NCBI GenBank assembly: GCA_965215425.1
Contig: OZ244064.1
Span: forward strand, 2,588,095 to 2,652,094
From: Dehalococcoidia bacterium
Lineage (GTDB): Bacteria; Chloroflexota; Dehalococcoidia; Lucifugimonadales; UBA3495
DNA: 64,000 nucleotides
Reading direction: 5' to 3'
The notes under the pieces were generated by a model. That model was not told where the DNA came from. It saw only the letters and a list, made by a program, of their open reading frames with translations, and searched no databases. Each line of letters starts with the position of its first letter. The first letter of the stretch is position 1. Below are positions 8,689-63,602 of this stretch, piece by piece. Position numbers and translations under genes: made by a program.

Positions 8689-8798
8689 ACACCGGGGCAG
8701 ATAGAGTGCTACGAGTCTCCGTGGTGCAAGAAGGTCTGTCGCCAATGCCGATTTACGATACGATTAGCCCGACGACAATCCTGGGGGGAGGGGGGCCC

Positions 8799-9623
8799 GG
8801 GCAATCGCGTCTTAACTGCGAAGGACTTTCAGCAAGTGGGCATCCCGCCCGCTGGCTTGCCGGCGTTTGCCCCGGATGCCCACTTTCAGGCTGGTTTCCC
8901 GTTTCAGCAGGTTGGGGGAAATTTGCCGCAGCGTCGCCAGGTTCTGGGGCGCGTGAGCCTTGCGAATCCGGCATTGGTCTTCCCGGAAGGTCCCGTCCAG
9001 GCTTCGGTGCAAAGAGTTCTCGCTGCTCCGGTGGGTGCGTACTGCCGCCAGCAACTGCTCTGCCGGCGCGGTCAGACTGCTGATGCAGCACCTGGATTGC
9101 ACGGTTGACCCCTCCGCCGTCTCCCGATGGCCCACCACTTTGACCACCGCCGTCCAAATCCAGCAGTCCGCCCGCTTATTTCCCCGCCGCGCCCCCCGGC
9201 AAGTCCATTGCTCAGCACAGGCGATCACCGCCGCCGGTTGCCCTCCCGCCATAGCAGCCGGGCGCTGCCGGGCCTGCTCCCGCAGCCGCTCTAACGCTTG
9301 TCGCCCCCCTTTTTGACCCAGTTGCTGACCGTTTGCACCCTAACTCCCACCACCCGGCTGACCGCGCTCAGGCTGCTGCCCTCCCCATACATTTGCAGCG
9401 CTTGCTCCGTGACCGCCGGCCCCGCTGGGCTGATAGCGCCGGCCGCAATCCCCGCAGCGGTAGCGTTGCTGGCCCCGGTTATAGCCGTGCCTGGCCATCC
9501 AATTGGAACCGCAGTCGGGACAACGCACATCGTGGCAGTAAACTCGGGGACGGCGCAGCATCACACCTCCGACAACAGGCCTGCCTCAATCATAACTCTA
9601 TCCCAACTTATGTTGAAAAGACC
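8799..9623 (-). mobile_element. Chimeric IS remnant: the 3' part of an ISAs1-family element fused to the 5' part of an IS1-family element
   Basis: The left end carries the same terminal repeat GGGCAATCGCGTCTTAA as the 23007 copy. ORF 8812..9252 reads ...QWTCRGARRGNKRADCWIWTAVV (IS1 InsB N-terminus) joined directly to KVVGHRETAEG...ENSLHRSLDGTFREDQCRIRK...LLKVLRS (ISAs1 transposase C-terminus). ORFs 9340..9564 and 9291..9530 give a frameshifted InsA-like zinc finger (CPDCGSNW...RYRCGDCGRRY) plus HTH. The right end ...TGTTGAAAAGACC resembles the IS1-like end at 24497. Confidence 0.7.
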
Positions 9624-16829: not shown

Positions 16830-17002
16830 CCGGTTATACCGGATTGAGAAGGAGAAAATATCCGGTGCAACTGGTTTATCCAGGGCTAAATCCCTCAGGC
16901 CGGCACGGCAGACCGGCACGGGTTAGAAACCGCTGGGCGGGTATGGTACAATGGCCCGGTCAAGTCCCGATTCCCCAAACACCGCAGCAGAGAGGGTTGG
17001 CT

Positions 17003-19285
17003 ATGTCCAATATCGTACTGTCAAATACGGAATACCAGGTGGTCGGCACCCGGCCCATTCGTCACGATGGCACGGACAAGGTAACCGGCCGCGCCAAGTA
17101 CGGCGGCGATTTCCAGATGACCGGACTGCTCCATGGCCAGGTGTTGCGCAGTCCCCACGCCCACGCCCGCATCAAGTCCATTGACACCAGCAAAGCCAAA
17201 GCCTACCCCGGCGTCAAGGCGGTGATAACCGGCCGGGACCTGCCCGTCGCTGGTATGGAAACTCCCGGGCGGGGAATGCGCTTCTCCAGTGAGAACATTC
17301 TGGCCCAGGACAAGGTCCTGTATCGGGGGCACGCCGTGGCCGCCGTGGCCGCCACCAACCTCCATATCGCCGAAATCGCCGTGGGGCTGATTGAAGTGGA
17401 GTACGAAGTTTTGCCTCCGGTAATCAGCGTTACCCAGGCGATGCAAGCGGACGCTCCCCTGGTCATCGAGGATATGACCACCACCGACTTGGGGGAACGG
17501 ACCGACACCCACAGCAACATTGCTACCCATTTCAAGTACGAACTAGGCGACCTGGAACAGGGATTTGCCGAAGCCGACGTGGTGGTGGAGCGGGAGTTCC
17601 GGACCGCTACCGTGCACCAGGGCTACATCGAGCCGCAGAACGCTGCGGCCCTGTGGAACGCCGACGACAAGTTGACCGTCTGGACCAGCACCCAAGGGGC
17701 TTTCAGCGCCCGGGATTCCCTGGCCCAGATTCTGGACCTGCCGGTCTCCCAGATTAAAGTGGTGCCGATGGAAATCGGCGGCGGCTTTGGCGGCAAGATT
17801 CCTGTTTACCTGGAGCCGATGGCCGCTATCCTGTCCCGAAAGACGGGGCAGCCGGTGAAACTGTTGATGTCCCGTACCGACGTATTCGAAAGCACCGGCC
17901 CCACTTCAGGCGCCACGATGCGGGTGAAAGTGGGGGCTACCAGGGACGGCAAGATTACGGCGGCGGATGCTACCCTGGCCATGGAGGCTGGAGCCTTCCC
18001 CGGCTCTCCTGTGACCATGGGCGCCCAGTGTATGTTCGCTCCCTATGACATTGAAAATGTCCGGGCCGAGGGTTATGACGTGCTGGTGAACAAACCCAAG
18101 GTCGCCCCCTACCGGGCGCCGGGAGCGCCCATTGCCGCCTTTGGCGGCGAGCAGGTAATGGACGAGGTCGCTCGCGAACTGGGCCTCGACCCGGTGGAGT
18201 TCCGCCTCCGCAACGCCTCCAGGGAAGGCACCCGACGGGTGGACGGCCCGGAGTTCCCGGTCATCGGCAACATTGAGTGCGTGGAAGCGGCCAAGGCTAC
18301 CGAGCACTACAATACTCCGCTGACCGGCCCCAACCGGGGCCGGGGCATCGCCTCCGGTTTCTGGTTCAACATCGGGATGCAGTCCAGTTGCAGTATTGGC
18401 GTCCAGTCCGACGGCACCATCAGCCTGGTCGAGGGTTCCACCGACATCGGCGGCACCCGGGCCTCCATTGCCATGCAAGCCGCCGAGGTGCTGGGCATTC
18501 CCGCGGCGGACGTGCGCCCCAGCGTGGCCGATACCGACTCGGTGGGCTATACCTTCCTGACCGGCGGCAGTCGCACCACCTTTGCCAGCGGTTGGGCCGC
18601 CTACGAGTGCGCCCAGGACATCAAACAGCAGCTGATTGACCGGGCCGCTACCATCTGGGAGGTGTCGGCAGCGGATGTGGAACTGGCCGGCGGGGTGTTC
18701 CAGCACAAGTCCGACTCGGACCTGAAAATGACCTTCAAGGAACTGGCGGCCCAGCTCAACGGCAGTGGCGGCCCCATCTCCAGCCAGGTCAGCGTTGACC
18801 CCCGGGGCGCCGGCGGCGCCTTCTCCACCCATATCGTGGACGTGGAAGTTGACCCGGACACCGGCAAGGTGGACATCCTTCGTTACACCACCGTCCAGGA
18901 CGCCGGCAAGGCGATTCATCCCAGCTACGTGGAGGGCCAGATGCAGGGCGGCGTGGTGCAGGGCATCGGCTGGGCCCTGAATGAAGAATACTACTTCAAC
19001 GAGGCCGGCCAGATGGTTAACTCCAGCTTTCTGGACTACCGGATGCCCATCAGCCTGGACCTGCCGATGATTGACACGGTGATTGTAGAGGTAGCCAATC
19101 CGGGCCATCCTTACGGAGCCAGGGGCGTGGGCGAAGTGCCGATAGTGCCGCCCATGGCCGCCATCGCCAACGCCATCCACGACGCCATCGGGGTACGGAT
19201 GGAACGCCTGCCGATGAGCCCCGGCGCTATTCTGGAAGCCCTGTGGTCGCAGAACGGTCAGCCAGAACAGCCGGCGGCAGACTAG
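17003..19285 (+). CDS. Xanthine dehydrogenase / aldehyde oxidase / CO-dehydrogenase-family molybdopterin-binding subunit
   Basis: GTRPIRHDGTDKVTGRAKYGGD, LRSPHAHARIKSID, HQGYIEPQ, GGGFGGK and the C-terminal GVGEVPIVPPMAAIANAI are hallmarks of this family's large subunit. The ATG at 17003 has a GAGGG RBS, and the upstream extension in the track is unlikely. Confidence 0.9.
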   Translation: MSNIVLSNTEYQVVGTRPIRHDGTDKVTGRAKYGGDFQMTGLLHGQVLRSPHAHARIKSIDTSKAKAYPGVKAVITGRDLPVAGMETPGRGMRFSSENILAQDKVLYRGHAVAAVAATNLHIAEIAVGLIEVEYEVLPPVISVTQAMQADAPLVIEDMTTTDLGERTDTHSNIATHFKYELGDLEQGFAEADVVVEREFRTATVHQGYIEPQNAAALWNADDKLTVWTSTQGAFSARDSLAQILDLPVSQIKVVPMEIGGGFGGKIPVYLEPMAAILSRKTGQPVKLLMSRTDVFESTGPTSGATMRVKVGATRDGKITAADATLAMEAGAFPGSPVTMGAQCMFAPYDIENVRAEGYDVLVNKPKVAPYRAPGAPIAAFGGEQVMDEVARELGLDPVEFRLRNASREGTRRVDGPEFPVIGNIECVEAAKATEHYNTPLTGPNRGRGIASGFWFNIGMQSSCSIGVQSDGTISLVEGSTDIGGTRASIAMQAAEVLGIPAADVRPSVADTDSVGYTFLTGGSRTTFASGWAAYECAQDIKQQLIDRAATIWEVSAADVELAGGVFQHKSDSDLKMTFKELAAQLNGSGGPISSQVSVDPRGAGGAFSTHIVDVEVDPDTGKVDILRYTTVQDAGKAIHPSYVEGQMQGGVVQGIGWALNEEYYFNEAGQMVNSSFLDYRMPISLDLPMIDTVIVEVANPGHPYGARGVGEVPIVPPMAAIANAIHDAIGVRMERLPMSPGAILEALWSQNGQPEQPAAD

Positions 19286-22861: not shown

Positions 22862-23661
22862 CGGGGGCGATTGCAACCGGAACGTCCATAAGAAAGCCCT
22901 TCTGTGTCGGGCGGGGCGAACCGCCGGCTCCAGCCCTTTGAGCCGATCAGAGCGAAGGGTGAGCTGCTAGTTCAACCGCCTTGCAATCGCCCTGGTAGCC
23001 AGCGCCGGGCAATCGGGTCTTAACTGCGAAGGACTTTCAGCAAGTGGGCATCCCGCCCGCTGGCTTGCCGGCGTTTGCCCCGGAGGCCCACTCTCAGGCT
23101 GGTTTCCCGTTTCAGCAGGTTGCGGGAAATTTGCCGCAGCGTCGCCAGGTTCTGGGGCGCGTGAGACCTGCGAATCCGGCATTGGTCTTCCCGGAAGGTC
23201 CCGTCCAGGCTCCGGTGCAAAGAGTTCTCGCTGCTCCGGTGGGTGCGTACTGCCGCCAGCAACGGCTCTGCCGGCGCGGTCAGACTGCTGATGCAGCACC
23301 TGGGTTGCACGGTTGACCCCTCCGCCGTCTCCCGATGGCCCACCACTCTGACCACCGATTTCAGGCCAGGCCAGGACTGGCCGGCGCTCAGGTAGGCCGG
23401 ACTCAACGGGTCGTTGATCACCCGGCGCTCCCGCCATTCCACGCGGCCGTGGTTCCTGTTCAGCGTGTTGGCATAGTCATGGGGAACTCCCTGGTAGCCG
23501 AACTCCTCCGCTCCGGCAAACAGGTCCTGCACCTCCTGATACAACCGGCCCTGGTTCCCTTTCAGGGCGAGAACGTATTGAGCCTCCCGCTCCAATATCG
23601 CTTGGGCGATAGCCTTCGGGCAGCCCAGGGCATCAATGGTGACGATGCGCCCCCTCAGTTC

Positions 23662-40277: not shown

Positions 40278-40811
40278 CTAAAAGAGCTTCTCCACGGCCA
40301 GGGTGATAGAAACAGCCAACCCGGCGGTGGCAATGATGGTTCCAATCATCCACCGGATAGTGTTGGTTTGCGCCCGTTCAATGGCGACCAGCAGTTCAGC
40401 CCGCAGCCTTTCCCGATCGGCCTGCATATCGCCACGCAGCTTTTCCATATCGCCACGCAGCCTTTCCATATCGCCGCGCAACCTTTCCATATCGGCCTGC
40501 ATATCGCCGCGCAGCTTTCCCATATCGGCCTGCATGTCGCCGCGCAGCCTTTCCATATCGCCGCGCAGCTTTCCCATATCGGCCTGCATATCGCCGCGCA
40601 GCTTTCCCATATCGGCTTGCATATCGCCGCGCAGCTTTCCCATATCGGCTTGCATATCGCCGCGCAGCCTTTCTATATCGCCACGCAGCCTTTCCATGTT
40701 GGTCTGCATGTCGCCGCGCAACTTTTCCAGGTCGTCCTTAGTCGCCAAGTGATTTTGCAGCTCTTCCAGGGCAGCGACTCGTTCTTGTATTGGGACGGCT
40801 TCGGTAGTCAT
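40278..40811 (-). CDS. DUF1640-like coiled-coil protein with 11 LRGD-containing 7/11-residue repeats and a C-terminal TM anchor
   Basis: LATKDDLEKLRGDMQTNMERLRGDIERLRGDMQADMGKLRGDMQADMGKL... is followed by RWMIGTIIATAGLAVSITLAV. A GAGGA RBS precedes the ATG. The DNA repeats (21- and 33-nt units) span about 40421..40727. Confidence 0.65.
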   Translation of the reverse strand: MTTEAVPIQERVAALEELQNHLATKDDLEKLRGDMQTNMERLRGDIERLRGDMQADMGKLRGDMQADMGKLRGDMQADMGKLRGDMERLRGDMQADMGKLRGDMQADMERLRGDMERLRGDMEKLRGDMQADRERLRAELLVAIERAQTNTIRWMIGTIIATAGLAVSITLAVEKLF

Positions 40812-40888
40812 AATCCTCGTATCCGTTTGGCTTTCCCGGTTCCGGTAGTATGCGCCACCCGCGCTGTGGCTGGCCAGGGCATTTGGCT

Positions 40889-42232
40889 CTATTGGCCGGC
40901 GTTGCCGGGGTCATTGCTGTTTTCAGCGAGGCTGGCGGCGTTCAGGGCGGCATTGGACGCATAGTCCGAGTCCACCGAGGAGGTTTCGGCCAGGGCCTCG
41001 GCCAGGGCGCTCCGGTGCACCTCGCCAATGAGCATATTGTCGGCGTTGGTAACCGGGATGGGAAAGTCGGTGCCCATAGCCAATGGGATCAGCTGGTCGA
41101 AGGTGGTGCTGGGGGAAACCGATTGATGCTCCTGGTCAATGAATTCCCAAGCCTTGTCAAAGCGCTTGACCCCGGCCCGCAGGGCTTTCTCCGTGTTGGT
41201 AATGGACAGCAGGCCCATGTAGCGTTCCTGGCGGTCCACCACCCAGGCCACGTCGCCGTCGCTGTTGCCGATGGTGTGCAGGGCGGCCCGCGGTCCCTGG
41301 TGTCCCATTACCGTAGCCTTGGGGGATACCATCACCTTGCTGGCGGTCAACACGCTTTCCAGGCGCACGTCCTGGGTGAAATCGCCTACGTATTCGTCCT
41401 CGGGGTGCAGCACGATGTCTTCCGGCGAACCGATTTGGACTATACCGCCATCGTGCATAATGGCGATATGGTCGCCCAGCTTCAGCGCCTCGTTCAAGTC
41501 GTGGGTGATGAATACGATGGTCTTTTGGAACTCCGTTTGCAAGTTAAGCAGTTCGTCCTGCATTTGCCGCCGGATCAGGGGGTCCAGACCGCTAAAGGGC
41601 TCGTCCATCAGCAGAATATCGGTATTCACCACTAGGGCGCGGGCCAAGCCCACCCGTTGCTGCATTCCACCGGATAGCTGCCGGGGGTAGGAGTCCTCCC
41701 AGCCGCCCAGCCCGACCAGGCTCAGGATTTTCCGGGTTCGTTCATATCGTTCTTCCTTGGCAACCCCCTGAACTTCCAGCCCCCAGGCGGCGTTATCCAG
41801 CACGTTGCGATGGGGCATCAGTCCGTAGTGCTGGAAAACCATGGCGATCTTGGTGCGGCGGAAATCAACCAGTTCCTTGTCGGTCATCTGGGTGATGTCG
41901 GCGCCGTCGATGATGATCTCGCCGGCGGTGGGTTCAATCAGGCGCAACAAGCAGCGAACCAGGGTTGACTTGCCGCTGCCGGAAAGCCCCATAAACACGA
42001 AGGTTTCGCCTTTCCGGACTTCAAAGTTCACGTCCCGCAGGGCCAGCACGTTGCCCAGTTCACTCCGAAAAAACGCCTTATCCTTGCCGGCATGTTTTGG
42101 CTCCAAGACTTGTTCGGGGTTCTTGCCAAATACTTTCCAGAGGGACTGGACCAGGATATAGGGTTCAGAGCCGCTACCCTGGGCTGGTTCGGCGGTCAGG
42201 AGATTCTGGGCATCGTCATTATTATTCCGCAC
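40889..42232 (-). CDS. proV: Glycine betaine/proline-type ABC transporter ATP-binding protein with tandem CBS domains
   Basis: Walker A is GLSGSGKST, the ABC signature is LSGGMQQRVGLARAL, and Walker B is ILLMDEPFSGLD. A CBS pair forms the C-terminus. The start is GTG with an AGAGGGA RBS. Confidence 0.9.
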   Translation of the reverse strand: MRNNNDDAQNLLTAEPAQGSGSEPYILVQSLWKVFGKNPEQVLEPKHAGKDKAFFRSELGNVLALRDVNFEVRKGETFVFMGLSGSGKSTLVRCLLRLIEPTAGEIIIDGADITQMTDKELVDFRRTKIAMVFQHYGLMPHRNVLDNAAWGLEVQGVAKEERYERTRKILSLVGLGGWEDSYPRQLSGGMQQRVGLARALVVNTDILLMDEPFSGLDPLIRRQMQDELLNLQTEFQKTIVFITHDLNEALKLGDHIAIMHDGGIVQIGSPEDIVLHPEDEYVGDFTQDVRLESVLTASKVMVSPKATVMGHQGPRAALHTIGNSDGDVAWVVDRQERYMGLLSITNTEKALRAGVKRFDKAWEFIDQEHQSVSPSTTFDQLIPLAMGTDFPIPVTNADNMLIGEVHRSALAEALAETSSVDSDYASNAALNAASLAENSNDPGNAGQ

Positions 42233-50378: not shown

Positions 50379-50397
50379 TTCTGACAGTTATCGGTCC

Positions 50398-50685
50398 CGC
50401 TGAGAAAGGGAGTATTAAGAGTGCTTTGCCCCCAGAGAGCCGGCGTTTGGTGCAAGTCCGGCGGCAGTAGGCTCCCAACTCGCCCTGGAGCGGCCCGCCT
50501 GAACCAAGTAGGGCGTGGCGGTTGACCCCGTTAAAGGTTGGAAAAGCTGTTCCGGTCCCCATCCCGCGTCGAGCCTGTAGCGGGCTCATAGCTTGGTAAG
50601 CGTTGCGGGGTTTTGGGCCGGGAAAGAAGGGTGGTACCGCGGGAATTAAGCCCGTCCCTTCGGGGGATGGGCTTATTTATTTGGC
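50398..50685 (+). promoter_or_regulatory. T-box riboswitch leader, probable Leu (CUC) specifier, with terminator
   Basis: Stem I shows a K-turn (GCUGAGAA / GGAGCGG), an S-turn AGUA, an AGAGA bulge and a distal loop UUUGGUGCAAGU. The specifier loop is CCAA-CUC-G (CUC at 50479..50481). The T-box sequence AGGGUGGUACCGCG lies at 50628..50641 with a UGGU bulge, which would pair with an A73 discriminator. The terminator AAGCCCGUCCC-UUCG-GGGGAUGGGCUU plus a U-rich tail lies at 50648..50685. Confidence 0.85.
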
Positions 50686-50723
50686 AGCTAGCGATTGGTG
50701 CATCGCGAGAAGACGAGGAAAAA

Positions 50724-52418
50724 ATGGAACTGACCGGCGCGCAAATAGCTTGTGAAAGCCTCCTCCAGGAGGGGGTGGAAGTGATCTTCGGCTTGCCCGG
50801 GGGCGCAGTGCTGCCCTTTTATGGCGCCCTCAGCGGCTATCCCCAGTTGCGGCATATCCTGGTGCGCCACGAGCAAGCCGCGGCCATGGCCGCCGACGGC
50901 TATGCCCGAGCCACCGGAAAGGTCGGCGTTTGCACCGCTACCTCGGGGCCTGGCGCCACTAACCTGGCTACCGGCATTGCCGGCGCTATGATGGATTCCA
51001 TCCCGATGGTGGCGATCACCGGCCAGGTGCCCCGCCCGGCCATTGGCCGGGATTCTTTCCAGGAAACGGACATTACCGGCATTACCCTGCCGATAACCAA
51101 GCATAATATGCTGATTCTCCAGGTGGAGGACGTCGCCCCGGCCATCAAGGAGGCTTTCCACATCGCCAGGACCGGGCGGCCCGGGCCGGTGCTGCTGGAC
51201 ATCCCCAAAGACGTTCTGGCGGGGGAACGCTGTCCCTTCGTCTGGCCGAAGCAGGTTAACCTGCCCGGGTATAACCCGCCGGGGGCAGCTGACGCCGTTC
51301 AGGTATCCCAGGCCTGTGAATTGATCAACCGGGCGGAGCGGCCGGTTATCCTGGCCGGTCACGGGGTGCTTATTTCCCATGCCTACGCCGAGTTGAAGGA
51401 GTTGGCGGAGAAGGCCCAGATTCCGGTCATCACAACTCTGCTGGGCATCAGCTCCTTCCCCACCAACCACTTGCTCCACGCCGGTATGCCCGGTATGCAC
51501 GGCATGGCCTATGCCAGCCTCGCCATCGACCAGGCGGACCTGCTGATTTCCCTGGGGATGCGGTTTGACGACCGGGTAACCGGCCGGCTGTCCGATTTTG
51601 CCCCCAATGCCAGGGTGGTGCACGTGGACGTGGACCCGTCGGAGTTTCACAAGAACGTTAAGGCCACGGTGCCGGTGCTGGGCGAACTGAAACAGGTATT
51701 GAACCAGATGCTGCCCGAGGTGGAGCGCAAGACTCACCTGGCGTGGCTCCAGTGTATTGACACGCTGCGGGCGGAGCATCCTTCGCTGCACATACGGCAA
51801 ACCGACGAATTGCTGCCCCAGTACGTGCTGAAGCAGCTTTCCGACATCACCGAGGGCAACGCCATCGTGGTAACCGGCGTGGGCCAGCACCAGATGTGGG
51901 CGGCCCAGCACTATGCCTACAAAGAACCCAATACCCTGCTGACCTCCGGCGGCCTGGGCGCCATGGGCTTCGAGGTTCCCGCGGCCCTGGGGGCCAAGGT
52001 AGGCCGCCCCGACAAGGTTGTATGGTCCATCGCCGGCGACGGCGGGTTCCAGATGACTATGTGCGACCTGGCTACCGCGGTGGAGAACAACATTGACGTC
52101 AAGTTCGCCATTCTGAATAACGGCACGCTGGGCATGGTGCGGCAATGGCAGGACTTTTTCTATGACAAGGACTACTTTGCCACGGTCTATTCGGGTAATC
52201 CCGACTTTGTGAAGCTGGCCGAAGCCTATGGCATCACCGGAATACGGGTAACCGACAAGACCCAGGTGGCGGCGGGGATCCGTCAGGCGATGGAAACCCC
52301 CGGCCCGGTGGTGATGGATTTCATCGTCAAGCAAGACGAGCAGGTTTACCCGATGATTCCGGCCGGCGAGTCGGTCAACGAGATGATGGAAGAACCAGTC
52401 CCGGAGAGGATTTTCTGA
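50724..52418 (+). CDS. ilvB: Acetolactate synthase large subunit
   Basis: GAQIACESLLQEGVEVIFGLPGGA, the TPP motif GDGGFQMTMCDLATAVENNIDVKFAILNN, and its context with ilvN/ilvC support the call. The ATG is at 50724. Confidence 0.92.
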   Translation: MELTGAQIACESLLQEGVEVIFGLPGGAVLPFYGALSGYPQLRHILVRHEQAAAMAADGYARATGKVGVCTATSGPGATNLATGIAGAMMDSIPMVAITGQVPRPAIGRDSFQETDITGITLPITKHNMLILQVEDVAPAIKEAFHIARTGRPGPVLLDIPKDVLAGERCPFVWPKQVNLPGYNPPGAADAVQVSQACELINRAERPVILAGHGVLISHAYAELKELAEKAQIPVITTLLGISSFPTNHLLHAGMPGMHGMAYASLAIDQADLLISLGMRFDDRVTGRLSDFAPNARVVHVDVDPSEFHKNVKATVPVLGELKQVLNQMLPEVERKTHLAWLQCIDTLRAEHPSLHIRQTDELLPQYVLKQLSDITEGNAIVVTGVGQHQMWAAQHYAYKEPNTLLTSGGLGAMGFEVPAALGAKVGRPDKVVWSIAGDGGFQMTMCDLATAVENNIDVKFAILNNGTLGMVRQWQDFFYDKDYFATVYSGNPDFVKLAEAYGITGIRVTDKTQVAAGIRQAMETPGPVVMDFIVKQDEQVYPMIPAGESVNEMMEEPVPERIF

Positions 52419-57808: not shown

Positions 57809-57837
57809 TTGACACCGCCCGGCCCAATGCCTAGACT
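57809..57837 (+). promoter_or_regulatory. Sigma-70-type promoter (TTGACA-17 nt-TAGACT) for the second molybdoenzyme gene
   Basis: The -35 lies at 57809..57814 and the -10 at 57832..57837. An AGGAGG RBS lies at 57863..57868. Confidence 0.5.
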
Positions 57838-57874
57838 AGGGCCACCAGTTACTGAAAAAATCAGGAGGCCGCCG

Positions 57875-60157
57875 ATGACGACCACCGCCGAAGGCAAATA
57901 CAGCGTATTGGGCACCCGTCCCCCGCGCCATGACGGTTTTGACAAAGTAACCGGGGCCGCCCGGTTCGGCGCTGATATTAACCTGCCCGGAATGTTGCAC
58001 GGCAAGATTCTGCGCAGTCCCCACGCCCACGCCCGTATCCGGACCATTGACACCAGCCGGGCCGAAGCCCTGCCCGGCGTGCTGGCAGTAGCCACCGCGC
58101 AGGACTTCCCCATTGTCCGGGAACGCCCCTCCATCGACTACGAAAACGCGCAGCAGAACCCGCGCATTATCGCCGAGAATATCCTGGCCTACCGCAAAGT
58201 CCTGTACCGGGGCCACGCCGTAGCGGCAGTGGCGGCCACCAATCCCCACGTAGCCGAAGCAGCCCTGGACTTGATTGAGGTTGACTATGAAGTGCTGCCC
58301 GTCGTTCTGGACTTGCACGATGCTCTGAAAGAGGATGCGCCCCTGCTCCACGATGACATGACTACCCGCTTCCGGGTGGAGCGGTTCGGTCCCGGCGATG
58401 ATACCGGCCAGCGTAGCAATATCGCCGGCCATTTGCAGCACAAGTTGGGAGACGTGGAAAAGGGCTTTGCCCAAGCCGACGTGGTAATTGAACGGGAATA
58501 CGAAACTCAAACGGTGCATCAGGGCTACATTGAACCCCACGTGGCTACCGCCCAATGGTCCACCGACGGGCGACTGACCGTCTGGACCAGTACCCAGGGC
58601 GCCTTTGCCGTTCGCGCCACCACCGCCGCCATCCTGCGCTTGCCCGAGTCTATGGTCAAGGTGATACCCATGGAGATTGGCGGCGGCTTTGGCGCTAAAG
58701 GCGTAACCTACCTGGCGCCGGTAACGGCGGCCCTGGCTAAAAAGGCCGGCCGTCCCGTCAAGATTGCCATGAGCCGCAAGGAGGTATTTGAGGGCAGCGG
58801 CCCGGCCTCTGCCACCTTTATGCGGGTCAAGGTTGGCGCTACCCGGGAGGGTAAGATCACGGCCGGACAGGTGTATATGGCCTACGAGGCCGGCGCCTTT
58901 CCCGGCGCCCCGGTAGGCGGCGGCGCTATTACCGGCTTCGGCTCCTACAACATTGAGAATGTCTTGGTGGACGGCTACGATGTGGTCTGCAACAAGCAGA
59001 AAGCCCAGTCCTACCGGGCGCCGGGCCAGCCCCAGGCCAACTTTACCGTAGAGTGCGCCCTGGACGAACTGGCCGAGCAGCTGGGCATTGACCCCTTGGA
59101 ATTGCGCCTGAAGAACGCGGTTAAGGAGGGCGACCGGATGCCCAACGGTGTCCCCCACGCCGTTTTCGGCTGCGTGGAGCTGGAAGAGGCGATGAAAAAC
59201 CACGACCATTACAACGCGCCCCTGGGCGGCCCCAACCGGGGCCGGGGCATAGCTGTTGCCTTCCGGGCCCAGGGCGGGCAGACTTCCTCAGCCACCATCA
59301 ACGTCAACAGCAACGGCACCATCAACCTGATAACCGGCTCGGTGGATATTGGCGGCACCCGTACCGCCATTGCCATGCAGGCCGCCGAGACCCTGGGTCT
59401 GGCTTCGGAGGACGTATTTCCGGCGGTGGGAGATACCGATAGCGTCGGCTATACCGCCAACACCGGGGGCAGTCGCACCGCCTTTGATACTGGCTTGGCC
59501 GCCATCGCCGCCGCCGCGGAGGTCAAGGAGCAGATGAAGCGCCGGGCCGCCTTGCTCTGGGAAGTCGAAGATGAGGACGTGGCCTTTGAAAACGGCGTCT
59601 TTGTCTGTGTCAAAACGGAAGACCGGCTGACTTTCAAGGAACTGGCGGGACGGCTGATGCGTACCGGCGGCCCGGTTACCTGCTCGGCCTCGGCGGCCTC
59701 CACCGGGGTTGGCCCCATCTTCGCCGGCAACATCGTGGACGTGGAAGTGGACCCGGAGACCGGCAAGGTGGATATTCTGCGCTTTACCGCTTTTCTGGAC
59801 GCCGGCCAAGCGGTGCACCCCAGCTTTGTAGAGGGACAAATGCAGGGCGCCACGGTGCAGGGCATCGGCTGGGCGCTGAATGAAGAGTATTTCTATACCC
59901 CGGAAGGGACGATGGCTAACTCCAGTTTCCTTGACTACCGGATGCCCACCACTCTGGACCTGCCGATGATTGACACGGTGATTATCGAAGTCCCCAACCC
60001 CCGCCACCCCTTTGGCCTGCGGGGCGTTGGCGAAGGGCCGATAATCCCGCCCCTGGCGGCGGTAGCCAACGCGGTCTATCACGCCACCGGCGCCCGCATC
60101 CGCAAGTTGCCCATAACTCCGGGCGCGGTGCTGGAGGCTTTGGCGGAAAGGGAGTAA
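57875..60157 (+). CDS. Xanthine dehydrogenase / aldehyde oxidase-family molybdopterin-binding subunit (paralog of 17003..19285)
   Basis: GTRPPRHDGFDKVTGAARFGAD, LRSPHAHARIRTID, HQGYIEPH, GGGFGAKG and GVGEGPIIPPLAAVANAV are all present. It aligns collinearly with the first copy. Confidence 0.9.
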   Translation: MTTTAEGKYSVLGTRPPRHDGFDKVTGAARFGADINLPGMLHGKILRSPHAHARIRTIDTSRAEALPGVLAVATAQDFPIVRERPSIDYENAQQNPRIIAENILAYRKVLYRGHAVAAVAATNPHVAEAALDLIEVDYEVLPVVLDLHDALKEDAPLLHDDMTTRFRVERFGPGDDTGQRSNIAGHLQHKLGDVEKGFAQADVVIEREYETQTVHQGYIEPHVATAQWSTDGRLTVWTSTQGAFAVRATTAAILRLPESMVKVIPMEIGGGFGAKGVTYLAPVTAALAKKAGRPVKIAMSRKEVFEGSGPASATFMRVKVGATREGKITAGQVYMAYEAGAFPGAPVGGGAITGFGSYNIENVLVDGYDVVCNKQKAQSYRAPGQPQANFTVECALDELAEQLGIDPLELRLKNAVKEGDRMPNGVPHAVFGCVELEEAMKNHDHYNAPLGGPNRGRGIAVAFRAQGGQTSSATINVNSNGTINLITGSVDIGGTRTAIAMQAAETLGLASEDVFPAVGDTDSVGYTANTGGSRTAFDTGLAAIAAAAEVKEQMKRRAALLWEVEDEDVAFENGVFVCVKTEDRLTFKELAGRLMRTGGPVTCSASAASTGVGPIFAGNIVDVEVDPETGKVDILRFTAFLDAGQAVHPSFVEGQMQGATVQGIGWALNEEYFYTPEGTMANSSFLDYRMPTTLDLPMIDTVIIEVPNPRHPFGLRGVGEGPIIPPLAAVANAVYHATGARIRKLPITPGAVLEALAERE

Positions 60158-60319: not shown

Positions 60320-61207
60320 CTACCCCACCGCCGCCGGTTCCCGCGCCTCCACTTTGGCAATAAACTCCAGCAACTGGGCGGCGTAGAAGGTGGCCTTCAT
60401 ATGGTAGCGGTTGGTGGCGGCGATGCCGGGAAAGGTGCGGTCGTGCTGACCGACGATGGCCCACTCGTCGTCAGTCCAGGCCGAAGGGCGCAGTTCCGAG
60501 TCGGGTATGAGGCGGTGGGCGCTCTCCGCCGCCGATTTGTGGTGCACCTCGTCCGGCGTGTTGCCCTCGAACAGCATTACCGGGCAGCTAATTCCGGCTA
60601 GTTGTCCCTCGGTCAAGTCGCTGACCGGGTTGGGGAGGGAATAGGCCTCCTGCCAACGGCGCATCACCGCGATGAACTCCGCCGGGTCCATGGTGCGCAG
60701 CCTTTCCGCGTTGGCCGGGTTGTCCTGGATGCGCTGGGCGAAGTATTCGGTCTCGGCCACGGCGGCCATACCGCCCTGTGCGGCGGCGTCAATAAACTGG
60801 CCGTAGTAGTTGGGCGCGGTGGCCTCGGCGCTGCGCGGGCCGCCGCTGACCTCCCAAATAAACACGCCTTTGACCACCTCCGGGCGGCGCGCCGCCAAGG
60901 TCAGACTGGTGCGGGAGCCGGCCGAGCCGCCGACGGCATAGGCCGGAGCGGCGTCCAGTTGCAGCAACAGCCCGGCCATCTCCTCGGCCCAAAGGTGCTG
61001 CTCCGAAAGCTCCCCGCCGATAACTACGTCGGACTTGCCGCAGTTGCGCCGGTCGTGGAGAATGACCCGGCAGTTGGCCGAAAGCAACGCCGCAATGGGC
61101 CGCAATCCGTTGGTGTCATTTCGACCGCCGGGGGTCAGTATTACCGTCGGGCCGGTTCCGTAGTCCTCATGATAAAGATTCACCCCATTCACGTTGGCGT
61201 ATGGCAT
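60320..61207 (-). CDS. Alpha/beta-fold hydrolase
   Basis: VNGVNLYHEDYGTGPTVILTPGG is followed by the nucleophile elbow GGSAGS. An AAGGAG RBS is present. Confidence 0.8.
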   Translation of the reverse strand: MPYANVNGVNLYHEDYGTGPTVILTPGGRNDTNGLRPIAALLSANCRVILHDRRNCGKSDVVIGGELSEQHLWAEEMAGLLLQLDAAPAYAVGGSAGSRTSLTLAARRPEVVKGVFIWEVSGGPRSAEATAPNYYGQFIDAAAQGGMAAVAETEYFAQRIQDNPANAERLRTMDPAEFIAVMRRWQEAYSLPNPVSDLTEGQLAGISCPVMLFEGNTPDEVHHKSAAESAHRLIPDSELRPSAWTDDEWAIVGQHDRTFPGIAATNRYHMKATFYAAQLLEFIAKVEAREPAAVG

Positions 61208-61289: not shown

Positions 61290-61817
61290 TTAGCTGTTGA
61301 CGTAGGGAACGCCGAACCGTTCCCGGTGGGCGATTTCCGCCATGGGCTTGCGGGGAACGCTGGGGCGGCCCGAAGGCTGCCCGGTTCGGTAACCGTAGGG
61401 CATCAGGGTTATCAGCTCGTGGTCGGCGGGGATTGCCAGCAGTTCCTTAACCGCTCGCTGTTGTTCCTCAATCCGGACGCCCACAAAACAGGTGCCCAGG
61501 CCTTCAGCCCAGGCGACCAACTCCATCTGCTGCAATGCGCGTCCAGCATCCAGTTGGGGACGGGGAGCATCCGGCGCCATAACGATGGCAATGACCAAAG
61601 GCGCCTGCCCGATGAAGGCCCCCTGGGTGGCGATGCCGGCCAGGGCGGCCAGCGTGTCCGGGTCGCTGACCACCACAAAGTGCCAGGGCTGGGAATTGCT
61701 GGAACTGGGCGCCCAGCGTCCGGCGCGGAGAATCTTCCGCACCACCGCCGCTGGCACCGGGTCCGGTTTATAATCCCGCACCGTCCGGCGGCTGCGGATA
61801 CATTCGTAAACTTCCAT
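61290..61817 (-). CDS. Nitroreductase family protein
   Basis: IRSRRTVRDYKPDPVP...ILRAGRWAPSSSNSQPWHFVVV is the classic nitroreductase N-terminal pattern. A GGAGGAAGG RBS is present. Confidence 0.88.
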   Translation of the reverse strand: MEVYECIRSRRTVRDYKPDPVPAAVVRKILRAGRWAPSSSNSQPWHFVVVSDPDTLAALAGIATQGAFIGQAPLVIAIVMAPDAPRPQLDAGRALQQMELVAWAEGLGTCFVGVRIEEQQRAVKELLAIPADHELITLMPYGYRTGQPSGRPSVPRKPMAEIAHRERFGVPYVNS

Positions 61818-62090
61818 TTCCTTCCTCCAGGTATGGGGATGCGTAGTTGCCGGCCGGGTTGCATTATGGCACGGGAAGAGAGGAATGGGTAGTGGGGGGT
61901 ATTCCCGCAGCGGCGCTGCGATGCAGAGTCACGCCGCGAGCAAATAACCGTAACCTCAGTAACCTCGGCGAATCTCTGCTCCGCTGCGTTCTCCGGGTGA
62001 GAAAATCTCCAGACGATAGGTTATAATTGAGGTTATAGTTGGAGAAGCACCCGACGGAATCCCGACCCCATAACAAGACAGAGGTGAAGT

Positions 62091-62555
62091 ATGCCCGCAG
62101 AAATTGGCGACGTTGCGCCGGACTTCAAGCTGCCCTCGGTGAGCGAGGGCGATTTTACCCTGAGCCAGTTCAAAGGCGAGAAGAGGGTAGTCCTCTCCTT
62201 CCATGTCTTTGACTTTACCGCTGGTTGAACCACGCAGGCCACCTCTTTCCGGTCGTATCACGGACGGTTTGAGGAGATGAATGCCCAGGTGCTGGGCATC
62301 AGCTGCGACCACGTTAACGCCCATCGGGCTTGGAGCACGGCCATGGGCGGGCTGCCCTATCCGGAGCTTTCCGACTGGCATCCTAAGGGCCAGGTTACCG
62401 AGGCTTACGGCCTGTGGAACGATGCGCGGGGCGCCGGGACGCGCGCCATAATCATTGTGGACAAGGAAGGCATCGTCCGTTTCCGGGAGACCTACGCTCC
62501 CGGCACACTGCCGGATCCGCTTTACGTCCTGTCCGAACTGGAAAAGCTGGACTGA
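62091..62555 (+). CDS. BCP/PrxQ-type peroxiredoxin with an in-frame TGA (62226..62228) at the peroxidatic-Cys position: candidate selenocysteine enzyme, or else a pseudogene
   Basis: My translation from the ATG at 62091 (GAGGTG RBS) is MPAEIGDVAPDFKLPSVSEGDFTLSQFKGEKRVVLSFHVFDFTAG-TGA-TTQATSFRSYHGRFEEMNAQVLGISCDH.... It continues in frame into ORF 62277..62555, for 154 codons in total. The BCP consensus at that site is DFTPGCTxE. A hairpin lies 14 nt downstream of the TGA. Confidence 0.6.
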
Positions 62556-62720
62556 TGCCGGGCGGGACTGATTCAGGGGTTATACGGCTCGGTTAGTTGA
62601 CCGTTACCCGGTGCGACCGGGAGGCAAAAACCGGGGGTGAGGAAATTCCTCACCCCCGGTTTCATCATTTATCGCTCTGCCCGGCTTGGGCGGGGTTCAG
62701 GTTCGTTGCCGCTCAATAAA

Positions 62721-63602
62721 TCAGGCGCCAATTTTTTCGATCAAGTAGCTCAAGGTTCCCCTGGGCACCGTGATTTCCACTTCCTCGCCGACCGTGCGAT
62801 CCAGCAGGGCCTGGCCCACCGGGGACACCGTAGAGATTTTTCCGGAGGAGGCATCGGCCTCCCGCTTATCTACCAGGGTGTAGTTTATTCGCTTGCCGGA
62901 GGCTATGTCCTTTATGGTAATGCTGCTGCCCACTACCGTCCGTTTGCCGACGTTTGCCCCGGCCTCGCCGGAAAGTATCTGGGCATTGCTGACCTCCGAT
63001 TCCAGTTCCCGGATTTTAGCTACCACGAAACCCTGTCGTTCCTTGGCGGCATCCAGGGGGGCATTCTCCCGGAAGTCCTTGCCGGCCATGGCCTGCCTGA
63101 CTTCATCGTCGGCCCGTATCTTTTCCTCCCGGTATTTCGCCAACTCCTCCACCAGCCGGTCGTAGCCTTCTTTGCTGAGCTGGGGGCCGGTGGACTGGCT
63201 GCCGGCCCCGGCCGATTGACGGGCAGCGCCACCGCGGCGCGAGCGGCTGGCCCGCAAGTGGGTAGCCAGGTTGGTTTCTGTCCAGTTTTTCTTGCGCAGG
63301 AAGGCCAGAAACTCCTTAACCGGGGCTAACCGCTTCTGGGCATCCGCTCCCCGCTGGGAAAACTCTTTGGCATAATCTTCTATCTGGCTGGGGGAAAGGT
63401 CGCTCGCTTTCCGGTCCCGGCCATACCAGTCAATAAAGCGGATAATCTCCTGGTGCCCGTCCATTGATTTCCTGGCGTTCTTGCCGTTCTTTTTATCGGC
63501 AACAAAGAGGCTAAGCGCATCGTGCAGGTTGTTGCTGATCCCTTCAACCGACGGCTCAGCCGTCAGGGCGGTGTCCTCGTTAGGGTTATTGGGAGTAACC
63601 AA
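62721..63602 (-). CDS. GreA/GreB-family transcript-cleavage factor domain fused to a roughly 140-aa N-terminal extension
   Basis: The C-terminal approximately 150 aa read LSKEGYDRLVEELAKYREEK...GKDFRENAPLDAAKERQGFVVAKIRELE...GKISTVSPVGQALLDRTVGEEVEI, which fits the GreA coiled coil plus globular domain. The start is TTG with an AAGGAGG RBS. Confidence 0.8.
   Translation of the reverse strand: MVTPNNPNEDTALTAEPSVEGISNNLHDALSLFVADKKNGKNARKSMDGHQEIIRFIDWYGRDRKASDLSPSQIEDYAKEFSQRGADAQKRLAPVKEFLAFLRKKNWTETNLATHLRASRSRRGGAARQSAGAGSQSTGPQLSKEGYDRLVEELAKYREEKIRADDEVRQAMAGKDFRENAPLDAAKERQGFVVAKIRELESEVSNAQILSGEAGANVGKRTVVGSSITIKDIASGKRINYTLVDKREADASSGKISTVSPVGQALLDRTVGEEVEITVPRGTLSYLIEKIGA

What the first reader, a model, noticed from the sequence alone, without database searches (positions are those of the whole stretch)
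62091..62555. Peroxiredoxin with TGA in place of the peroxidatic cysteine: candidate selenoprotein
Seen in the sequence: reading from the ATG at 62091 gives a full-length (154-codon) BCP/PrxQ-type peroxiredoxin, interrupted only by TGA at 62226..62228. That codon falls exactly where the family has its catalytic Cys (FDFTAG-TGA-TTQATSF here, against the consensus DFTPGCTTEA). The frame continues without further stops into ORF 62277..62555. No other sign of decay is visible.

Starting 14 nt after the TGA is a hairpin: a CCUC/GAGG stem, a UUU/UUU internal loop, and a CCGGUCG/CGGACGG stem (7 positions with one G-A mismatch) closed by the apical loop UAUCA. Its apical loop falls in the distance range expected for a bacterial SECIS element.

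Established knowledge: Sec-for-Cys peroxiredoxin-like proteins are a recognised bacterial selenoprotein family, and gene callers routinely miss them or label them pseudogenes. The usual resolving-Cys position (five residues on) is Thr, so this would be a 1-Sec enzyme.
Basis: partly seen in the sequence, partly recalled or inferred. Interest (0 to 1): 0.7.

Follow-up and report, generated by a model that had tools for sequence, protein, structure and literature searches.

The report
Selenocysteine peroxiredoxin gene, missed by annotation
The "stop" codon inside this antioxidant-enzyme gene is almost certainly read as selenocysteine: the same TGA sits at the catalytic position in about 150 related bacteria, so this is a real but already known kind of selenoprotein that gene callers routinely cut in two.

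Summary
Positions 62091-62555 (+) encode a 154-codon peroxiredoxin. Its only interruption is TGA at 62226-62228, at the peroxidatic Cys position.

This is not a recent nonsense mutation:
- All 81 orthologues from distinct Dehalococcoidia/Chloroflexota species carry TGA at codon 46.
- Across the wider family, 155 sequences have TGA and 8 have a Cys codon.
- Codons 1-45 evolve as coding sequence, the same as codons 47-153.
- TGA still ends genes in these genomes, so the recoding is site-specific.

Synonymous sites are frozen over codons 45-69. Two conserved hairpins lie there, and both weaken in most Cys forms:
It shows compensatory changes and sits at the canonical SECIS (selenocysteine insertion sequence) distance.
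- H2 (62281-62299) is new. It has 8 bp and a near-invariant A-GGUNC-U apex, about 60 nt after the UGA.

- The protein is AhpE-like, not BCP/PrxQ.
- The motif Pro is replaced by Val.
- An invariant Cys72 makes the "1-Sec" claim uncertain.

Sec machinery could not be searched genome-wide. It is absent from the window. Published data list Dehalococcoidia MAGs with 46-49 selenoproteins.

Verdict: a new member of a known selenoprotein kind, of modest interest.

The parts
62081..62086 (+). Shine-Dalgarno-like GAGGTG, 4 nt before the ATG
   Evidence: Read from the sequence. Similar purine-rich boxes precede the ATG in orthologues.
62091..62555 (+). Full-length coding sequence of an AhpE-like peroxiredoxin with selenocysteine at codon 46 (154 codons plus a TGA stop)
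   Evidence: Orthologues in 80 species are full length with the same single TGA.
62223..62225 (+). GGT (Gly45) just before the TGA; the codon is invariant in 81 orthologues although Gly has four codons
   Evidence: Synonymous entropy ratio 0.00; GGT-TGA-AC is invariant.
62226..62228 (+). In-frame TGA read as selenocysteine (U46), at the peroxidatic position of the T-x-x-U motif
62242..62274 (+). Hairpin H1: CCUC/GAGG lower stem, U-rich internal loop, CCGGUCG/CGGACGG upper stem, loop UAUCA. It sits at the canonical bacterial SECIS distance (27 nt from UGA to loop).
   Evidence: MFE fold. Compensatory pairs, e.g. columns 27-57 CG/UA, 36-48 GC/CG/UA/AU, 37-47 CG/UA. Synonymous suppression at codons 51-62.
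62281..62299 (+). Hairpin H2: AUGCCCAG-GUG-CUGGGCAU, 8 bp with a GUN triloop. The apex A-GGUNC-U is near-invariant. It lies about 60 nt after the UGA.
   Evidence: 99.3-99.6% of cells paired. Pairs 65-83 and 66-82 are kept in 117/117 and 102/117 near-clade sequences and in 27/27 far-clade sequences. The loop third base is free while the stem wobble sites are frozen. GGU is present in 110/117.
62304..62306 (+). Cys72 (TGC) in the invariant G-I-S-C-D motif; candidate resolving thiol
   Evidence: Invariant column. The role is inferred, not tested.
62628..62672 (+). Terminator-like 16-bp hairpin with a T-rich tail, between the peroxiredoxin gene and the convergent GreA-like gene
   Evidence: this is the only site found; the shuffles average 1.3 such sites; GreA domains in 62721-63602(-).

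Best explanation
62091-62555 is one intact gene for an AhpE-like thiol peroxidase whose peroxidatic residue is selenocysteine, encoded by UGA 62226-62228.

Shown here:
- The UGA and both flanks are conserved as one reading frame across about 150 lineages.
- Cys occupies the same position in a few homologues.
- An RNA element of about 75 nt downstream of the UGA is under selection at synonymous sites and forms two conserved hairpins.

Inferred mechanism:
- During translation, SelB bound to GTP and Sec-tRNA(Sec) binds this RNA. It delivers Sec to the A-site UGA in competition with release factor 2.
- H1 starts 14 nt after the UGA, so it stays folded at the mRNA entrance when the UGA reaches the A site.
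- H2 carries the only sequence-invariant apex, GGU.
- Which hairpin SelB touches is not resolved. Position favours H1. Loop conservation favours H2, with H1 then acting as a folded spacer.

Inferred chemistry: the selenolate of U46 reduces peroxides to a selenenic acid, which is recycled by a thiol. That thiol could be the invariant Cys72 or an external reductant such as a redoxin.
For: - TGA at codon 46 in 81 of 81 orthologues from distinct species at 70-95% amino-acid identity, and in 155 of 163 sequences of the wider family.
- Cys at the same column in P0008, P0011-13 and P0093. The position aligns with Cys45 of M. tuberculosis AhpE.
- Nucleotide identity by codon position is 0.83/0.885/0.50 upstream of the TGA and 0.81/0.86/0.51 downstream, so both parts are translated in this frame.
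- TGA is still a terminator. It ends this gene and 15 of the 81 orthologues, window gene included, and 7 of 44 long ORFs in the window.
- Synonymous-codon entropy over codons 45-69 is 0.52 of the gene-wide expectation. It is 0.89 and 0.85 in the rest of the gene (Mann-Whitney p = 9e-6).
- H1 plus H2 in 117 sequences: 88% of cells paired against 25-49% when partners are slid. There are 79 double-change cells against 26 in shuffles, and 0 of 500 shuffles reach the observed value.
- Both hairpins are weaker in most Cys forms. H2 energies are -0.7 to -12.9 (mean about -7) kcal/mol in Cys forms, against -11.1 +/- 1.4 in Sec forms.
- Database proteins of this family are mostly 87-104-aa C-terminal fragments, or have W at the site. 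That is the expected footprint of a missed Sec codon.
- Dehalococcoidia MAGs with the Sec pathway and 46-49 selenoproteins are on record (PMC13326102). Sec-peroxiredoxins with a TxxU motif are an established family (PMC1088965; PMC13188914).
Against: - No selA, selB, selD or tRNA-Sec was found in the 64-kb window or in 80 orthologous loci. The rest of the genome could not be searched.
- No Rfam family matches the region.
- Folded alone, the window hairpin is not better than shuffles (z = -0.16).
- H1 in the window has no G in the first two loop positions unless its innermost G-C and U-A pairs are opened. Only 44 of 117 H1 loops meet that rule.
- H2 meets the loop rule but lies about 60 nt from the UGA, outside the published 16-37 nt range (PMC13188914).
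- There is no direct evidence of selenium in the protein.
Confidence: 0.9

Rival explanations
1. Recent nonsense mutation: the gene is a pseudogene and the TGA stops translation after 45 residues.
For: Gene callers treat it this way: most database homologues are C-terminal fragments. The single-sequence hairpin is not significant.
Against: The same TGA is found in 81 of 81 species and in 155 of 163 family members. The upstream 45 codons are under the same purifying selection as the rest of the gene. There are no other stops or frameshifts.
Confidence: 0.01
2. Programmed UGA read-through without selenium. A near-cognate or suppressor tRNA inserts Cys, Trp or Gly at codon 46, and the downstream hairpins act as read-through stimulators.
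For: The Sec machinery was not found in the sequence available. Neither hairpin fits the published bacterial SECIS model in full. Some pipelines translate the site as W.
Against: The site is the catalytic Cys position, and the only alternative residue seen in nature there is Cys. That is the classic Sec/Cys signature. Trp or Gly would kill the enzyme. Dehalococcoidia MAGs with the Sec pathway and large selenoproteomes are documented. The H2 apex GGU resembles the GGUC loop in the hairpin after the UGA of a neighbouring TGA-containing gene in far-clade contigs.
Confidence: 0.05
3. Two separate products: a 45-residue peptide, plus an N-terminally truncated protein started at ATG 62277 (92 aa) that works without the catalytic residue.
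For: An ATG at 62277 opens the listed ORF. Databases hold many such 87-104-aa models.
Against: The split would cut the thioredoxin fold and remove the active site. The internal start is not conserved: callers pick starts giving 87, 88, 92, 94, 103 or 104 aa. Codons 47-62, between the TGA and that ATG, are conserved as protein.
Confidence: 0.02

Closest known systems
Selenocysteine-containing peroxiredoxins (Prx, T-x-x-U motif; first shown for Eubacterium acidaminophilum PrxU, abundant in Sargasso Sea/GOS metagenomes)
   Same: AhpC-TSA fold, with Sec replacing the peroxidatic Cys in a T-x-x-U motif (here T43-A-G-U46). There are Cys homologues, and a stem-loop lies just 3' of the UGA inside the coding region.
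   Different: It is not the PrxU equivalog: NCBIfam NF040737 scores 73.6 bits against a cut-off of 270. The Pro of the PxxxTxxU motif is Val39, preceded by His38. In this clade Sec, not Cys, is the usual state (155 against 8).
Mycobacterium tuberculosis AhpE (Rv2238c), a 1-Cys peroxiredoxin reduced by mycoredoxin-1/mycothiol
   Same: It is the best solved-structure match (E 7.5e-25 to 1.6e-23 over residues 4-143). Length is similar at about 153 aa, and the alignment around the active site and the conserved Arg is ungapped. JGI names Cys homologues 'mycoredoxin-dependent peroxiredoxin'.
   Different: AhpE has Cys45, Pro38 and Val at the position of Cys72. The window protein has Sec46, Val39 and an invariant Cys72. 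The reductant in Chloroflexota is unknown.
Consensus bacterial SECIS model (Zhang and Gladyshev 2005, as summarised in PMC13188914)
   Same: H1 has a 5-nt loop, a 7-position upper stem, 27 nt from UGA to loop, and an energy of -13.3 kcal/mol. H2 has a 3-nt loop that starts G-U on an 8-bp stem.
   Different: H1 lacks the required G in the first two loop positions in the window and in 73 of 117 relatives. H2 lies about 60 nt from the UGA, outside the 16-37 nt range. The constrained RNA is a tandem of two hairpins rather than one.

Membership tests
Peroxiredoxin (Pfam AhpC-TSA, PF00578) | Full-length match to the family profile above the gathering score | tested here: met
   118.6 bits against a cut-off of 26; residues 5-131 cover profile positions 1-123 of 124.
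Peroxiredoxin (Pfam AhpC-TSA, PF00578) | Peroxidatic Cys/Sec in a T-x-x-C/U motif at the start of helix 2 | tested here: met
   T43-A44-G45-U46 aligns without gaps to T42-G-I-C45 of AhpE. The column is C or TGA in all homologues.
Peroxiredoxin (Pfam AhpC-TSA, PF00578) | Pro of the PxxxTxxC/U motif | tested here: not met
   Val39 aligns with Pro38 of AhpE. F37-H38-V39 is invariant in the clade.
Peroxiredoxin (Pfam AhpC-TSA, PF00578) | Conserved active-site Arg | tested here: met
   R118 is invariant and aligns with the Arg of AhpE in 'anRgtfvvD'.
AhpE-type 1-Cys peroxiredoxin | Closest sequence relatives are AhpE proteins | tested here: met
   The top seven PDB sequences are all M. tuberculosis AhpE or a homologue (E 7.5e-25 to 9.8e-23). 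The next hits are typical 2-Cys Prx at 2e-20 or weaker.
AhpE-type 1-Cys peroxiredoxin | No resolving Cys (1-Cys mechanism) | tested here: inconclusive
   The position five residues after the active site is Thr51. However, Cys72 is invariant. Its distance to U46 could not be measured with these tools.
   NF006960 scores 56.8 bits against 140; NF053650 scores 46.1 against 260.
PrxU (NCBIfam NF040737, Sec-peroxiredoxin of the E. acidaminophilum type) | Score above the curated cut-off | tested here: not met
   73.6 bits against 270.
Bacterial selenoprotein | In-frame UGA aligned with Cys in homologues | tested here: met
   L081 (Cys) and L113 (Sec) differ at 7 of 462 nt.
Bacterial selenoprotein | UGA conserved across species, with coding-type conservation on both sides | tested here: met
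Bacterial selenoprotein | Conserved RNA structure 3' of the UGA with covariation | tested here: met
Bacterial selenoprotein | Canonical bSECIS: loop 3-9 nt, stem 4-16 bp, G in the first two loop positions, 16-37 nt from the UGA, MFE at or below -7.5 kcal/mol | tested here: inconclusive
   H1 meets all rules except the loop G. H2 meets all rules except the distance.
Bacterial selenoprotein | selA, selB, selD and tRNA-Sec present in the genome | not testable with these tools
   None in the window or in 80 loci. Literature support is at class level only.
Bacterial selenoprotein | Selenium in the protein | not testable with these tools
   Needs 75Se labelling or mass spectrometry.

The most novel reading that the evidence does not exclude
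The recoding signal of this peroxiredoxin family may be a two-part SECIS. In this reading, the SelB-recognised apex is the near-invariant A-GGUNC-U loop of H2 (62281-62299), about 60 nt after the UGA and outside the 16-37 nt range of the bacterial model. H1 (62242-62274) has a conserved structure but a free loop sequence, and would serve as a folded spacer that brings H2 to the right through-space distance. With H1 closed, about 27 nt of path remain between the UGA and the H2 loop. This would be a distinct class of bacterial SECIS. It might account for some of the roughly 13% of bacterial selenoprotein genes reported to lack a canonical element.
Probability: 0.3. Interest if true: 0.6.

Novelty: new member of a known kind. 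Interest (0 to 1): 0.35.

Why it matters
- Annotation: the gene in this window, and its relatives in public records, should be one 154-residue selenoprotein. Public records currently hold 87-104-residue 'redoxin domain' fragments instead.
- Distribution: in one AhpE-like peroxiredoxin clade, spread through Dehalococcoidia/SAR202-type Chloroflexota and soil and marine metagenomes, selenocysteine is the normal catalytic residue and cysteine the exception. This bears on selenium demand and oxidative-stress defence in very abundant uncultured bacteria.
- Recoding signals: the family offers a well-sampled natural data set of over 140 sequences with two constrained hairpins. It could be used to test what a non-proteobacterial SelB actually recognises.

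Tried and rejected
- Rfam at gathering threshold on the whole window, and at E up to 10 on 62000-62700, gave no SECIS-type hit. Only chance miRNA-like hits appeared, on the terminator.
- ARAGORN found only tRNA-Pro in the window and no tRNA in 60 loci.
This is a weak test, since only 0.6 Mb was covered.
- Exact-protein look-ups of two window proteins, meant to identify the source record, found nothing on record.
- A scan of the window for other in-frame TGA candidates gave only frame shadows and adjacent genes. TGA 34270 lies 12 nt upstream of the ATG of an NHL-repeat protein and was rejected. TGA 52416 is the ordinary stop between ilvB-like and ilvN-like genes.
- CAGGTNCTG, the H2 core, occurs 9 times in the window against 1.7 expected. 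All nine read Q-V-L in frame and none but the peroxiredoxin site follows an in-frame TGA. This is a codon-usage effect, not further SECIS elements.
- Searching all loci for other conserved TGA genes gave mostly out-of-frame shadows. The exception was one credible second TGA gene next to the far-clade peroxiredoxins. Pfam did not identify it from a 70-aa fragment.
- Literature searches for SAR202 with selenoprotein or selenocysteine found nothing specific.

Full report
**1. The observation**

Reading from ATG 62091 gives 154 codons and a terminal TGA at 62553-62555. There is one internal TGA at 62226-62228, in the context FDFTAG-TGA-TTQATSF, and no other stop or frameshift. A GAGGTG box lies 4 nt before the ATG. 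A 16-bp terminator-like hairpin follows the gene at 62628-62662. With Cys in place of the stop, the protein matches Pfam AhpC-TSA over the whole profile (E 2.1e-34). As a single sequence it is no better than shuffles (z = -0.16). The description is accurate, but the hairpin alone proves nothing.

**2. Is the TGA a lesion or a codon?**

A protein search returned a telling pattern. Most close homologues are 87-104-residue C-terminal fragments. A few full-length ones carry W at the site and a few carry Cys.

I fetched the DNA of 80 orthologous loci from one-genome-per-species collections. Nearly all are Dehalococcoidia or Chloroflexota MAGs, including SAR202, at 70-95% amino-acid identity. Every one of the 81 sequences, window included, has TGA at codon 46. 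The context GGT-TGA-AC is invariant.

A metagenome scan seeded with the Cys-type relatives added 80 more loci. In all, 155 sequences have TGA and 8 have TGC or TGT. The TGA group includes a distant clade at about 40% identity with the motif LAWTPV-U-TAQMPAY.

Across the 81 orthologues, nucleotide identity at codon positions 1/2/3 is 0.83/0.885/0.50 for codons 1-45 and 0.81/0.86/0.51 for codons 47-153. Both sides of the TGA are therefore translated in this frame and are under equal purifying selection.

TGA remains a terminator in these genomes. It ends this gene and 15 of the 81 orthologues, window gene included, and 7 of 44 long ORFs in the window. This is site-specific recoding, not a reassigned code. 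The nonsense-mutation reading is excluded.

**3. The RNA downstream**

For codons whose amino acid is conserved, I compared the entropy of synonymous codon choice with the gene-wide usage of that amino acid. The ratio is about 0.85-0.9 over most of the gene. It falls to a mean of 0.52 over codons 45-69 (Mann-Whitney p = 9e-6). The lowest values are:

| Codon | Ratio |
|---|---|
| Gly45 | 0.00 |
| Phe53 | 0.20 |
| Arg54 | 0.38 |
| Gly58 | 0.26 |
| Arg59 | 0.28 |
| Glu62 | 0.17 |
| Asn64 | 0.00 |
| Ala65 | 0.17 |
| Gln66 | 0.28 |
| Leu68 | 0.24 |
| Gly69 | 0.33 |

Two hairpins account for this.

In 117 distinct sequences its pairs show compensatory changes:
- Columns 27-57: CG 84, UA 15.
- Columns 36-48: GC 86, CG 9, UA 4, AU 2.
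- Columns 37-47: CG 68, UA 17.
- Columns 30-54: GC 41, CG 9, AU 7.

Some of these are purely synonymous, for example ACC...GAG changing to ACU...GAA.

*H2 (62281-62299)* is new: AUGCCCAG-GUG-CUGGGCAU.
- It is paired in 99.3-99.6% of cells.
- It extends to 8 bp through Asn64 AAU and Ile70 AU. This explains why AAT is invariant.
- It is kept in both the near clade (117 sequences) and the far clade (27 sequences).
- The loop third base, the Val wobble position, is completely free (G/T/C/A = 35/35/24/23). This serves as an internal control for mutational saturation.

For H1 and H2 together, 88% of cells pair against 25-49% when partners are slid. There are 79 double-change cells against 26 in shuffles, and 0 of 500 shuffles reach the observed value.

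In the eight Cys forms both hairpins are usually degraded. H2 energies there are -0.7 to -12.9 kcal/mol, against -11.1 +/- 1.4 in Sec forms. The Cys forms that keep the hairpins are very close relatives of Sec forms. One Cys form, L081, differs from a Sec form, L113, at only 7 of 462 nt. Three of those differences lie in the active site: D41A, U46C and T47S. This is a very recent switch.

**4. Which hairpin is the SECIS?**

The published bacterial model requires four things (PMC13188914):
- a 3-9 nt loop on a 4-16 bp stem;
- a G in the first two loop positions;
- 16-37 nt between the UGA and the loop;
- an MFE at or below -7.5 kcal/mol.

H1 meets the size, distance (27 nt) and energy (-13.3 kcal/mol) rules. 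Its loop in the window is UAUCA. A G appears only if the innermost G-C pair, and the U-A pair RNAfold adds inside it, are opened to give GUAUCAC. Across relatives, only 44 of 117 H1 loops have the G, and loop length ranges from 3 to 13 nt.

H2 has the G-U loop start, with GGU present in 110 of 117 sequences, on a strong stem. But it lies about 60 nt from the UGA.

In far-clade contigs a neighbouring gene with a conserved in-frame TGA (LTGG-U-PxVC) has a hairpin with a GGUC loop about 21 nt after its UGA. The H2 apex therefore resembles what SelB appears to read in at least those organisms.

With H1 folded, the path from the UGA to the H2 loop is about 27 nt. I therefore regard the region 62242-62299 as the recoding element and leave the SelB contact unresolved. 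Position favours H1. Sequence conservation favours H2, with H1 as a spacer.

**5. What the protein is**

The closest solved structures are M. tuberculosis AhpE (Rv2238c; E 7.5e-25 to 1.6e-23). The alignment is ungapped and puts U46 on Cys45 and R118 on the catalytic Arg. No NCBIfam model reaches its cut-off:

| Model | Score (bits) | Cut-off (bits) |
|---|---|---|
| PrxU | 73.6 | 270 |
| BCP | 56.8 | 140 |
| PrxQ | 46.1 | 260 |

The protein is therefore an AhpE-like peroxiredoxin, not BCP/PrxQ and not the characterised PrxU.

Two clade-wide peculiarities stand out:
- The Pro of PxxxTxxC/U is Val39, preceded by His38.
- Cys72 in G-I-S-C-D is invariant.

Cys72 still makes a strict 1-Sec mechanism uncertain.

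**6. Sec machinery**

No tRNA-Sec and no selA, selB or selD was found in the window or the 80 loci. The genome-wide test could not be run with the remaining tools. Support is indirect:
- BSepDB includes only species with the Sec pathway. It lists two Dehalococcoidia MAGs, with 49 and 46 selenoprotein genes, among the ten richest bacteria (PMC13326102).
- Chloroflexi were already counted among Sec-using phyla in 2006 (PMC1794560).

**7. What is known, and novelty**

Sec-peroxiredoxins with a TxxU motif are an established family. Examples are E. acidaminophilum PrxU and the 43 genes in the Sargasso Sea set. This gene is a new, unannotated member in a lineage already known to be selenoprotein-rich.

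Three points go beyond the routine:
- Sec is the default state of a whole AhpE-like clade.
- Public gene models truncate the family systematically.
- The recoding element is a tandem of two hairpins that fits the consensus model only in part.

**8. Surroundings**

The gene stands alone. Upstream on the opposite strand lie a nitroreductase (61290-61817), an alpha/beta hydrolase (60320-61207) and, further upstream on the + strand, a Mo-hydroxylase large subunit (57809-60157). Downstream, convergent, is a GreA-like factor with a long N-terminal extension (62721-63602). The Cys orthologue L081 shares the GreA and LeuA neighbourhood.

Noticed in passing
window 8797-9149 and 23005-23357: A 353-nt direct repeat at 97% identity, with copies 14.2 kb apart. 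It overlaps ORF 8812-9252(-). From memory, the tail of that ORF resembles the C-terminus of an ISAs1-type transposase, but Pfam gave no hit.
   Followed up: partly
window, 44 long ORFs; and the 81 orthologous peroxiredoxin genes: Stop-codon usage is unusual for 62% G+C DNA. The window ORFs end in TAG 21, TAA 16, TGA 7. The peroxiredoxin orthologues end in TAG 44, TAA 22, TGA 15. TGA is rare and TAG is the most common. This may be linked to heavy use of UGA for Sec in this lineage.
   Followed up: partly
L081:3001-3462 versus L113:1001-1462: A Cys form and a Sec form of the same gene differ at 7 of 462 nt. Three differences lie in the active site (D41A, U46C, T47S) and the downstream hairpins are identical. 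This is a very recent Sec/Cys switch between near-identical strains.
   Followed up: yes
L136:2123, L143:2150, L145:2153 and 13 other far-clade loci: Next to the distant Sec-peroxiredoxin clade lies a second gene with a conserved in-frame TGA. Its motif is LTGG-U-PxVC-HR. A hairpin with a GGUC loop follows about 21 nt after the UGA. From memory the motif resembles GrdB/PrdB-type reductases, but Pfam found nothing on a 70-aa fragment.
   Followed up: partly
window 62205-62210 and 62304-62306: Two clade-wide active-site peculiarities. His38-Val39 stands where peroxiredoxins have the Pro of PxxxTxxC, and the best PDB hit is the engineered AhpE variant that has His at the equivalent position (5c04). 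Cys72 in G-I-S-C-D is invariant.
   Followed up: partly
window 50393-50662: A T-box leader (Rfam 100.7 bits) lies ahead of an acetolactate-synthase large-subunit gene (50613-52418). It is followed by ilvN-like, ilvC-like and leuA-like genes. The listed TTG start at 50613 lies inside the leader, so it is probably too far upstream.
   Followed up: partly
window 40359-40739: A repeat with 21/33-nt periodicity, in 11 overlapping copies, lies inside ORF 40278-40910(-). That ORF gives only coiled-coil-type Pfam hits.
   Followed up: partly
window 16844-19285 and 57809-60157: Two paralogous genes for xanthine-dehydrogenase-family Mo-binding subunits, with DNA stretches about 70-72% identical. Pfam was run on the second copy only.
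   Followed up: partly
window 62223-62239: RNAalifold also proposes a small invariant hairpin that includes the UGA itself (G62223-C62239, U62225-G62237, U62226-A62236, G62227-C62235). It shows no covariation, so it cannot be told apart from coding constraint.
   Followed up: no
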